Below are positions 22,951 to 25,798 of a DNA stretch of 64,000 nt, piece by piece; the first letter of the stretch is position 1; the number at the start of each line of letters is the position of its first letter. The stretch covers positions 117,304,001-117,368,000 of the forward strand of contig OZ024741.1 of assembly GCA_964016885.1 (NCBI GenBank), given 5' to 3'. The notes beneath the pieces are model-generated. The model saw only the letters and a program-made list of their open reading frames with translations, did not search any database and was not told where the DNA came from. The position numbers and the translations under genes were made by a program. This stretch comes from Eledone cirrhosa. Lineage: Eukaryota.

Positions 22951-25122
22951 ATATATATATATATATATATATATATATATATATATATATATATATATAT
23001 ATATATATATATATATATATATACATATATATATATGTATATATATATATGTATATATATATATATATATATATATATATATATATATATATATATATAT
23101 ATATATATATATATATATATATATATATATATATATACATATATATATATATATACATTTATATATACATATATATATATATATATGTATATATATATAT
23201 GTATATATATGTATATATATATATGTTTATATATATATATATATATATATATATATATATAGATATATAGATATAAGTATATATAAATATATATATATAT
23301 ATATATATATATATATATATATATATATATATATATATATATAGAGAGAGAGAGAGAGAGAGAGAGAGAGAGAGAGAGATTACAGTAATCAAAGTTCAGT
23401 TTAAGTCATTTATTTGCTTACAATTGTTTCCTCCAAACCGAGGTTTGGATTCTTCGGAGCAACTATTTATAACATACTTGACCTCCTTTTCAACCCAAGA
23501 GACACATAAAACATATGCGCATATTGATCAACAGTGGGGTGACATTCATCAAATGAAACAGCATGGCAATTTACATATAAAGTGTTACATGATAAAAATA
23601 AAATAAAATAAAATAAAATAAAAGCAAGAGTGAAAATAAAGATAAACATGAAGCGTTGGCAGTCTATGAAGATAAAGCAAGAGGAAAGCTTAGAGTAGTC
23701 AGTGCATGAAGCAATCTCCCGTGTAGCATGCACGCTTGTCTTATCTATACATGATTAGAGTGCGTCAGAATGATATTTGCAGGGTCAGGCAGTTGAAGCA
23801 GGCAATCAATCTAATAATATAGGCTGAATTAATAAGTCATTAATTCTCATACATCTGTATGATATACAGTCTCGGATGCGGGGAAACACCAAAATATCAA
23901 AAACCTTCAACATACTATAAACCTTATTGTATCGTAGGCAAGGTCGTACCACTGTCCTTGCTCACACCACCACTCACATAATCCATGAGACGCAATATAT
24001 ATATATAGAGAACACGCGTCTATCATATAATTCGCAGTGGTTCAGCATATAGTCAAGCTATAAACGGTATCCAGTCGGTTCTTAATTAATATATCATGCT
24101 GTCCAAATTCCGGAAGTGCCTGAATGATTAAGGGGAATTAATGCGTAAGGGGAGGTAACTAGCTAGTTATTTTAGTTACATTACTATGCTAAACTACATT
24201 AATGGTGATTCAAATACGTGCCTATCATGTGAAGTTATAACTAATATCTAGAGTATGGTACCCAATTATAAGTTAGAGAGTTGTTCATTAAGAAGTACAA
24301 GGGTGTATATACTAGGATGATTGCCAACCAATAATTAGGGGTGTCATATCTGAACGTTCTATAAGAGGAGTCGGACTCTCAAGTCACTGCTCCATGCAAA
24401 TGTAATACAACAGTAGGACCTGGTATGGTCCCACTATTATATATGCCACCCGGTAGGCTCCGGGTCATTGCTTGCCTGCATCTCCAGTAAATCTTCGGTA
24501 TGGTCCGGAGATCCGATCTCTCATATAAACGCACTAGTCTGGCCATCAGGTAATAGACAACCCCCGTCTCAAATATAAATCAATTATGTATCACATTTCC
24601 AAGCTAGAGTGGAGTTTATTAATAGGTATTAAAGGAGTCCACATCAAGATGATTACGTTCATAATTCAATGAACTGATCGCTTACAGTATATACTCACTT
24701 AACAATATATATATATATATATATATATATATATATATATATATATATATATATATATATATATATATAACAATATATATATATATATATATATATATAT
24801 ATATATATATATATATATATATATATATATATATATATATATATATATATATATATATAACGGAAAAAATGAATCGAAATTTCATTTCCCACTCTTAGTA
24901 CGGCTGTTACTAAAATATAATTATGTACACGTACATACATATATGTATACAGACGTACAGTAGTATGTATATATATAGACATACATGCACACATATATAT
25001 ATGTACGTATGGATTCACCGAACATTTATTATAATGCTCGGTGTGTTTGTAAACAAACATCCCGTATGAAGCCGTAGTGTCTAGCAACCATCGTTGCTCG
25101 TTTGTTCAACACTGACAAAGGA

Positions 25123-25165
25123 ACGCTGTACTTGTTTCAAGCTTATTAGCTATCGTCAGCAACGT
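25123..25165 (-). ncRNA. type I hammerhead ribozyme motif
   Basis: Minus strand: acgttg CTGACGA t-agct-aata-agct-t GAAA caag TA cagcgt. Confidence 0.75.
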
Positions 25166-25325
25166 ATACCTTCCTGCCAGATTGGTGAACGTCTGAAACT
25201 ATATACTTTCCTTATGCATATCAACGGCTGAGTAGCCCAATCTGCATATCGAGTGGGTTAATCGGCTGGGTGCACCGAAAACGATAAACGGAAAAAATGA
25301 AATCAACAATCTGGCAGGAAGGTAT

Positions 25326-25368
25326 ACGTTGCTGACGATAGCTAATAAGCTTGAAACTAGTACAGCGT
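25326..25368 (+). ncRNA. type I minimal hammerhead ribozyme motif
   Basis: acgttg CTGACGA t-agct-aata-agct-t GAAA ctag TA cagcgt; palindromic stem III. Confidence 0.85.
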
Positions 25369-25798
25369 TCCTTTGTCAGTGATGAACAAACGAGCAACGA
25401 TGGCTGCTAGACACTACGGCTTAATACGAGATGTTTGTTTACAAACACACCGAGCATTATAATAAATGTTCAGTGAATCCATACGTACATATATATATGT
25501 GTGCATGTATGTATATATATATACATACTACTGTACGTCTGTATACATATATTATGTACGTGTACATACTTATATTTAAGTAACAGCCGTACTAAGAGTG
25601 GGAAATGAAATTTCGTTTCATTTTTTCCGTTTATCGTTTTCGGTGCACCCGGCCGATTAACCCACTCGATATGCAGATTGGGCTACTCAGCCGTTGATAT
25701 GCATAAGGAAAGTATATACTTTCAGACGTTTAACAATCTGGCAGGAAGGTATACGTTGCTGACGATATTTGGCTTCGTTTATTATAAATTAGAGATAT

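What the first reader, a model, noticed from the sequence alone, without database searches (positions are those of the whole stretch)
24859..25767. Two differently permuted, inverted copies of a ~427-nt hammerhead monomer: footprint of a circular RNA template
Seen: the minus unit starts and ends at one phase (period 428) and the plus unit at another phase (period 427). Each runs slightly past one full turn, and the copy at 56.4k begins at a third phase. No coding capacity is evident. Inference: variable permutation with terminal redundancy is expected from reverse transcription of a circular or multimeric RNA, as for retrozymes.
Basis: partly seen in the sequence, partly recalled or inferred. 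Interest (0 to 1): 0.8.

Follow-up and report, generated by a model that had tools for sequence, protein, structure and literature searches.

The report
Inverted pair of hammerhead retrozyme copies
Two back-to-back copies of a 427-base non-coding jumping element that carries a self-cutting RNA motif are real and belong to a very abundant animal repeat of a known kind (a retrozyme, probably moved by a Penelope-type retrotransposon); whether it was copied from an RNA circle or from a linear multi-copy RNA is still open.

Summary
A minus arm (24859-25302, period 428) and a plus arm (25305-25767, period 427) sit head to head; each is slightly over one unit and carries a type I hammerhead. The family is very abundant in organism A (49,353 of 12.5 million raw reads laid on the stretch). 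Both arms share two letters that 97-99.9% of reads lack, so they come from one insertion event. All three hammerhead-bearing arms cross the cleavage site uncut, so the template was longer than one unit. The permutation is not random: many copies share a 3' end at 25634 joined to (AT)n, like the minus arm. Head-to-head inversion, microsatellite targets and internal priming are described for Penelope-like elements, and tandem type I hammerhead repeats are the known non-LTR retrozymes. A circular template fits the lengths (1.04, 1.08, 1.14 turns), but a linear uncleaved multimer fits too (about even odds). No RNA data were obtained. Verdict: new member of a known kind, with a testable handle on the unproven circle-template step.

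The parts
24705..24859 (.). (AT)n microsatellite, probable target site, joined to the 3' end of the minus arm
   Evidence: 77.5 copies; same kind of junction in 52 X1 and 4 X4 contigs
24859..25302 (-). Minus arm, 444 nt (1.04 units), phases 312 to about 328; carries the family's preferred 3' end, so probably the primary reverse-transcription product
   Evidence: 'primary' is inference
25129..25159 (-). Type I hammerhead core of the minus arm; the palindrome in helix III is broken by one substitution
   Evidence: self-duplex -0.1 kcal/mol against -6.8 for the plus arm
25303..25304 (.). Head-to-head (5'-5') junction between the arms
25305..25767 (+). Plus arm, 463 nt (1.08 units), 36-nt terminal repeat; ends inside the second hammerhead
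25311..25379 (+). Type I hammerhead with extended helix I, 4-bp helix II closed by a U-U mismatch, and minimal helix III on a 4-nt palindrome; predicted cleavage 25362/25363
25676..25696 (+). Two near-private letters (G at 25676 and 25696) shared by both arms
   Evidence: table 3 (A in 97-99.9% of X1 and X23 depth; 75% and 99.7% in X4)
25768..25865 (-). Different, lower-depth repeat abutting the plus arm, with its own hammerhead (core 25850-25804, long helix II)
56397..56529 (-). Short inverted arm of a second, older insertion (phases 214-350)
   Evidence: 123 matches, 9 mismatches
56530..56884 (+). Long arm of the second insertion (phases 346 to about 272), hammerhead core 56639-56669, ending in (AT)n
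   Evidence: (310 matches, 41 mismatches)

Best explanation
A 427-nt non-coding, non-autonomous retroelement with one type I hammerhead per unit (a metazoan non-LTR retrozyme) was inserted in one event by the RT and GIY-YIG endonuclease of a Penelope-like element. SHOWN: closed 427-nt unit, hammerhead pattern, high abundance, common origin of the arms, preferred 3' end joined to (AT)n, uncut passage through the cleavage site, further strand-switch joints in independent reads. INFERRED: the endonuclease nicked (AT)n DNA; RT started at an internal site near phase 330 and copied one turn plus about 16 nt (minus arm); the opposite strand was primed at phase 36 on the same or an identical RNA and copied one turn plus 36 nt (plus arm); the two cDNAs were joined 5' to 5'. 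The template held more than one unit without a cut: a monomer circle (about 50%) or an uncleaved linear multimer of at least 1.8 units (about 50%). This locus cannot release a monomer circle itself: each strand has only one complete hammerhead, and this weak-helix-III type generally needs a partner.
For: Arms and phases. Hammerhead: 66 of 66 cells pair across 3 copies, 1 pair with a change on both sides, slid controls 30-49%; HH9 match. Abundance: 9,576 contigs in X1, 49,353 of 12,467,656 reads in X23, neighbouring repeat included. One origin: G at 25676 and 25696 in both arms; the 15 differences split 6 plus-only and 9 minus-only. Preferred end at 25634 plus (AT)n. 4 of the 15 joints shown are strand switches; 3 of them are head-to-head by side length (my inference). 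The 56k pair has twin-priming geometry: the inverted arm ends at phase 350 and the direct arm starts at 346 (mechanism in PMC2837659 passages). Four other hammerhead-like elements in the window are inverted or partial tandems. Literature: head-to-head inversions and tails in PLEs (PMC3846280, PMC8557442); internal RT initiation, nicking of both strands and use of unprocessed RNA (PMC11167929); retrozymes as PLE derivatives (10.64898/2026.07.22.740005).
Against: No autonomous partner was linked to this family. No tandem array with two complete hammerheads was seen: no genome was held and no long piece was laid. Rfam stays below gathering score. The covariation control is not significant: 168 of 500 shuffles are as high. 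Helix III has pairing probability 0.0 in the monomer ensemble, and the pair closing helix II is U-U or C-A. No target-site duplication can be read. Three of the four outer ends in the window (phases 36, 350, about 272) are not at the preferred end, and the 24.8k arms do not fit simple twin priming (152-nt overlap or 275-nt gap). Only 15 of 51 joints and 19 of 578 loose ends were shown.
Confidence: 0.8

Rival explanations
1. Sub-rival on the template, circle version: RT copied a covalently closed 427-nt monomer and stalled shortly after meeting its own cDNA.
For: Lengths are just over one turn: 1.04 and 1.08 for the arms, 1.14 for the 56k pair taken together; these are all copies blastn found in the window. 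No extra divergence in the part that would come from different units of a linear multimer (10/275 against 5/152, p = 1.0). The closed monomer folds stably (z -5.7; -2.9 without the AT-rich hairpin; 40 shuffles). Circles of mussel, coral and axolotl retrozymes exist (PMC7229834).
Against: n = 3. Both shared near-private letters lie in the 152 nt where the arms would overlap on a linear template (P about 0.17 if uniform). The antisense strand also folds well (z -3.7). No circle observed.
Confidence: 0.45
2. Sub-rival on the template, linear version: an uncleaved read-through RNA from a tandem dimer or multimer (at least 1.8 units) was primed twice, giving overlapping arms.
For: The position of the two shared letters. 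In vitro a Penelope-type protein uses mainly unprocessed RNA, and hammerhead mutants still insert (PMC11167929). This hammerhead type is weak as a monomer (PMC7229834, PMC4209133).
Against: It needs near-identical multimer source loci, which were not seen, and it does not explain why the lengths stop just over one unit.
Confidence: 0.4
3. The unit is only the terminal repeat (pLTR) or an internally deleted remnant of a longer autonomous Penelope-like element, and the permutation comes from partial tandems.
For: Head-to-head inversion, 30-40-nt tails and hammerheads on opposite strands 100-700 bp apart are described for truncated PLEs (PMC3846280, PMC4209133, PMC8557442); the plus-arm repeat is 36 nt.
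Against: Of the 19 loose-end rows shown, those from X1, X4 and X5 lead (by eye) back into variant monomer sequence or into (AT)n, apart from one single-contig 8-nt row I could not place and one at the far edge in the neighbouring repeat; none leads into new sequence. DNA reads go back 427 from many starts. No ORF. The ribozyme has canonical 6/4-bp helices, not the long-helix-II minimal form of most PLEs.
Confidence: 0.12
4. Two independent insertions, a DNA fold-back duplication or an assembly artefact.
For: Flanking microsatellites are unstable. No read across this exact junction was seen; it lay outside the stretch laid.
Against: The shared near-private letters argue against independent draws. 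The arms differ by 3.5% and each is continuous where the other ends, which a fold-back copy cannot give without a template jump. A second such locus lies at 56.4k, and strand-switch joints occur in independent raw reads.
Confidence: 0.05

Closest known systems
Metazoan non-LTR retrozymes (Cervera and de la Pena 2020, PMC7229834; mussel 350-390 bp, axolotl 330/350 bp)
   Same: Non-coding unit of a few hundred nt, GC 37%, one canonical type I hammerhead per unit, very high copy number, no LTR structure. The minimal palindromic helix III and the U-U at the base of helix II each occur in one of the two axolotl families.
   Different: Seen here only as arms of about one unit in head-to-head pairs, not as arrays. 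Expression, cleavage and circles are untested. A preferred 3' end in (AT)n is not described in the parts I read.
Non-LTR retrozymes as non-autonomous Penelope-like elements (Li, Clavereau and Pollet, bioRxiv 10.64898/2026.07.22.740005)
   Same: Dispersed monomers plus a PLE-type origin.
   Different: That study covers 31 vertebrates, 3 insects and 1 coral, and argues from co-occurrence and pLTR homology. Here the link is insertion anatomy, and no pLTR homology was tested.
Endonuclease-bearing Penelope-like elements (Penelope/Poseidon, Neptune, Naiad; PMC3846280, PMC8557442, PMC11167929)
   Same: Inverted 5'-truncated copy joined head to head, variable 5' ends, internal RT start giving a preferred 3' end, AT-rich or (TA)n targets, hammerhead.
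   Different: No ORF; the unit closes on itself; outer ends of the inverted arms vary by more than a 30-40-nt tail. Naiads lack canonical hammerheads, so a Neptune-type partner is my guess, untested.
L1 twin or dual priming (PMC2837659)
   Same: Inverted 5' segment whose outer end lies near the start of the direct segment (56k locus, phases 350 and 346).
   Different: No poly(A), no readable TSD, and the 24.8k arms overlap by 152 nt instead of showing a deletion.

Membership tests
Type I hammerhead ribozyme | Core CUGANGA / GAAA / UH with helices I-III | tested here: met
   3 of 3 copies; the pair closing helix II is U-U or C-A
Type I hammerhead ribozyme | Rfam match at gathering score | tested here: not met
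   none; HH9 19.6 bits against 52
Type I hammerhead ribozyme | Covariation support | tested here: inconclusive
   1 double change, 168 of 500 shuffles as high, only 3 sequences
Type I hammerhead ribozyme | Self-cleavage | not testable with these tools
   needs in vitro transcription of monomer and dimer
Non-LTR retrozyme | Short non-coding low-GC unit (about 150-450 bp) with one type I hammerhead, many copies | tested here: met
   427 nt, GC 0.37, longest ORF 50 aa; abundance
Non-LTR retrozyme | Head-to-tail arrays with at least two complete hammerheads | tested here: inconclusive
   not in this window; go-back-427 joints in 150-nt DNA reads show unit closure, not arrays; no genome held
Non-LTR retrozyme | Expressed as linear and circular monomer RNA | not testable with these tools
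   no RNA run was available to lay
Penelope-like element (EN+) | RT plus GIY-YIG ORF | tested here: not met
   no ORF in the unit, so not an autonomous PLE
Penelope-like element (EN+) | Head-to-head inverted 5'-truncated copy | tested here: met
   2 of 2 loci in the window; strand-switch joints in reads
Penelope-like element (EN+) | Preferred 3' end(s) and AT-rich or microsatellite target | tested here: met
   25634 plus (AT)n in 52 X1 and 4 X4 contigs; only 1 of 4 outer ends in the window is at it, 2 of 4 touch (AT)n
Penelope-like element (EN+) | 30-40-nt tail at one end | tested here: inconclusive
   the 56k arm ends 20 nt past the preferred end; the 36-nt plus-arm repeat is at another phase
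Penelope-like element (EN+) | Homology to the pLTR of an autonomous partner | not testable with these tools
   no eukaryotic genome or repeat library available
Plant LTR retrozyme | Type III hammerheads in LTRs | tested here: not met
   type I topology, no LTR pair

The most novel reading that the evidence does not exclude
These insertions record rolling reverse transcription of a 427-nt RNA circle by a Penelope-type enzyme: RT starts at a preferred internal site, goes once round, stalls after displacing 15-60 nt of its own cDNA, and a second priming on the same circle makes the inverted arm. A genome-wide pile-up of arm lengths just above 427 nt would be direct genomic evidence for the circle-template step, which the papers I read propose but do not show. 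A bolder extra: the two letters shared by both arms are both A-to-G on the ribozyme strand and could be A-to-I edits of the template (n = 2, not significant).
Probability: 0.4. Interest if true: 0.6.

Novelty: new member of a known kind. Interest (0 to 1): 0.35.

Why it matters
As a family it adds one more animal retrozyme. I found no description of it in the held library, but Repbase, Dfam and subscription journals could not be searched. Its value is mechanistic. It joins retrozyme anatomy to Penelope-type insertion marks (head-to-head inversion, preferred 3' end, (AT)n target). With its very high copy number it allows a purely computational test of whether retrozymes are reverse-transcribed from circles, a step proposed in 2014 and 2020 (PMC4209133, PMC7229834) and not shown in the papers I read.

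Tried and rejected
Rfam: nothing at gathering score; only AT-hairpin microRNA and similar chance matches in 1.7 kb. Sequencing runs: no RNA holder listed. In X23 the large loose-end and read-end peaks (25609, 25612/13, 25677/79, 25787, 25862) look like element ends but all sit on AATT sites, and 25702 on ATGCAT; I rejected them as marks of the restriction library. Summed depth was not used as a copy number. Pattern scans of metagenome contigs and viral contigs: 0 matches. Pfam on 7 ORF fragments: one weak RT hit, E 0.054, at 55520. PDB search of the 20528-21022 fragment: nothing. Atlas gave HTH_animal clusters at 0.96, a lead only. The isolated 91-nt hammerhead regions fold no better than shuffles (z -0.09 to -1.27). 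The test for extra divergence between template units was null and has little power. Earlier-finding look-ups by sequence, place and one word set were empty. Paper supplements were not read and may list cephalopod hammerheads.

Full report
SETTING. The window is microsatellite-rich animal-type DNA. A common repeat near 25925 looks octopus-like to me; this is recalled and comes from no call. No whole genome was held. I number phases on the 427-nt stretch 25305-25731.

OBSERVATION. It is as described. The plus arm runs 25305-25767 (463 nt, phase 1 to phase 36 of the next turn, 36-nt exact repeat). The minus arm runs 25302 to 24859 (444 nt, phase 312 to about 328, period 428, 15-nt exact repeat). 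They meet 5' to 5'. The minus arm ends in a 155-nt (AT)n tract. The plus arm ends against a different repeat with its own hammerhead. The copy at 56.4k is also an inverted pair: minus 56529-56397 (phases 214-350) and plus 56530-about 56884 (phases 346 to about 272, 310 matches and 41 mismatches, ending in (AT)n). These four arms are all that blastn found in the window apart from microsatellite matches (the output was cut in its low-score part). The closed unit has no ATG ORF over 50 aa, and GC is 37%.

RIBOZYME. Three copies carry a type I core, and the 26-nt pattern has 0 matches in 100 shuffles. Across the three copies 66 of 66 cells pair in a 22-pair model; one pair changes on both sides (U-G to G-U) and one on one side. 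Slid controls give 30-49%, but 168 of 500 column shuffles score as high, so covariation is not established. Rfam gives nothing at gathering score and a sub-threshold HH9 match on 101 nt. Helix III is minimal, on a 4-nt palindrome, and does not form in the monomer ensemble; its self-duplex is -6.8 kcal/mol in the plus arm and -0.1 in the minus arm. Such ribozymes are described as working as dimers (PMC4209133, parts 1-2 of 4 read; PMC7229834, passages and parts 2-4 of 6 read). The plus arm stops inside its second hammerhead and the other complete one is on the opposite strand, so this locus cannot excise a monomer (inference).

THE FAMILY ELSEWHERE. One search listed 20 holders in 16 studies. 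I laid 4 runs on 25305-25865. Organism A gave 9,576 of 16.5 million contigs (X1), 116 of 762,587 (X4) and 49,353 of 12,467,656 raw reads (X23, RAD library). Organism B gave 1 contig. The counts include the lower-depth neighbour, and X1 may be the window's own source. The tables were cut: 40 of 105 variants, 15 of 51 joints and 19 of 578 loose ends were shown. Four results matter. (1) DNA reads go back 427 from many starts, so the unit is closed on itself in DNA. (2) The largest X1 loose end shown is at 25634, followed by (AT)n (52 contigs; 4 in X4). This is the end of the minus arm within one letter, so the family has a preferred 3' end. (3) 4 of the 15 joints shown switch strand (25307/25588, 25323/25587, 25348/25586, 25348/25566). 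In the three from X23 the short side (25-27 nt) equals the distance to the restriction site at 25612, which makes them head-to-head; each has one start, as expected of a RAD locus; the X1 one is ambiguous. (4) At 25676 and 25696 both arms have G where 97-99.9% of X1 and X23 depth has A (75% and 99.7% in X4), and the 56k copy has A. The X23 end peaks are at restriction sites and were dropped.

MECHANISM. The two shared letters mean one origin. The 15 differences between the arms split 6 plus-only and 9 minus-only when polarised with the 56k copy and the reads, and are spread evenly (5/152 against 10/275, p = 1.0), as expected of decay after insertion from like templates. All three hammerhead-bearing arms cross the cleavage site, so a cut linear monomer was not the template. 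The insertion marks are those of Penelope-like elements: an inverted 5'-truncated copy next to the 5' end, mostly head to head (PMC3846280, 8 passages; PMC8557442, 12 passages); (TA)n targets; and internal RT initiation with nicking of both strands at AT-rich DNA (PMC11167929, parts 1-2 of 4). The 56k pair fits twin priming (PMC2837659, passages); the 24.8k pair does not fit it neatly. Four other hammerhead-like elements in the same 64 kb are inverted or partial tandems, so the inversion is ordinary in this genome.

CIRCLE OR MULTIMER. For a circle: lengths of 1.04, 1.08 and 1.14 turns, no extra divergence between turns, a stable closed fold, and circles in other animals (PMC7229834). For a linear multimer: both shared letters fall in the 152 nt where the arms would overlap on a template of 1.8 units (P about 0.17 under uniform spread), and a Penelope-type protein used mainly uncleaved RNA in vitro. 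A preferred 3' end fits both. I put the odds near even.

COMPARISON AND NOVELTY. It works like a non-autonomous Penelope-type element and fits the non-LTR retrozymes in size, GC, ribozyme type and abundance. Arrays, expression and circles remain untested, so membership is probable, not proven. A 2026 preprint (10.64898/2026.07.22.740005, parts 1-3 of 5 read) already argues that such retrozymes derive from Penelope-like elements. Four searches (listings) showed no description of this family; a squid genome paper only counts 235 hammerhead matches (PMC6962438, 2 passages). Supplements were not read, and repeat databases were not available. Earlier scan notes e1-6787993 and e1-7814458 concern other genomes, were not checked and are not used as support.

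VERDICT. A real feature and a new member of a known kind; interest 0.35. The open and testable point is the circle template (probability 0.4, interest 0.6 if a genome-wide length step confirms it).

Noticed in passing
window 53389-53818 and 54018-54447: Two 430-nt direct repeats, 99.5% alike, period 629, each with a long-helix hammerhead pattern (cores 53480, 54109), with AT-rich microsatellite on both sides: a young partial tandem with two complete ribozymes on one strand, a better candidate for releasing a monomer than the finding itself.
   Followed up: partly
window 13690-13835: Palindrome with no spacer, 73-nt arms, 92% complementary, with a hammerhead pattern at 13769.
   Followed up: partly
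window 30482-30685: Inverted 64-nt arms, 97% complementary, around a hammerhead pattern at 30591.
   Followed up: partly
window 5041-5517: Inverted 110-nt arms, 91% complementary, hammerhead pattern at 5115 on the minus strand.
   Followed up: partly
window 20528-21075: ORF fragment with HTH_animal look-alikes and 31-nt inverted repeats; resembles a 5'-truncated Penelope/Poseidon copy (resemblance recalled; Pfam found nothing).
   Followed up: partly
window 25768-25865: Another hammerhead repeat abuts the plus arm. 22 reads in X23 join this repeat to the 427-nt family at another place (25784 to 25371; table 5c), so the two families may be inserted together or into each other.
   Followed up: no
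window 25305-25348: All 4 strand-switch joints shown, like the window's own, have one side at phases 1-44, just 5' of or inside the hammerhead: an RT stall, a transcript start, or an edge effect of the reference.
   Followed up: no
window 25390: A diverged subfamily departs here (10,223 reads in X23, 18 contigs in X1).
   Followed up: no
window 43475-50578 and 59028-63025: Long strand-skewed satellites; the second has a 13-nt period with at least 251 register copies.
   Followed up: no
window 55517-56170, 35664-36050, 18418-18978: Decayed LINE-like fragments (weak RT hit at 55520; the other two by recalled motifs only).
   Followed up: no
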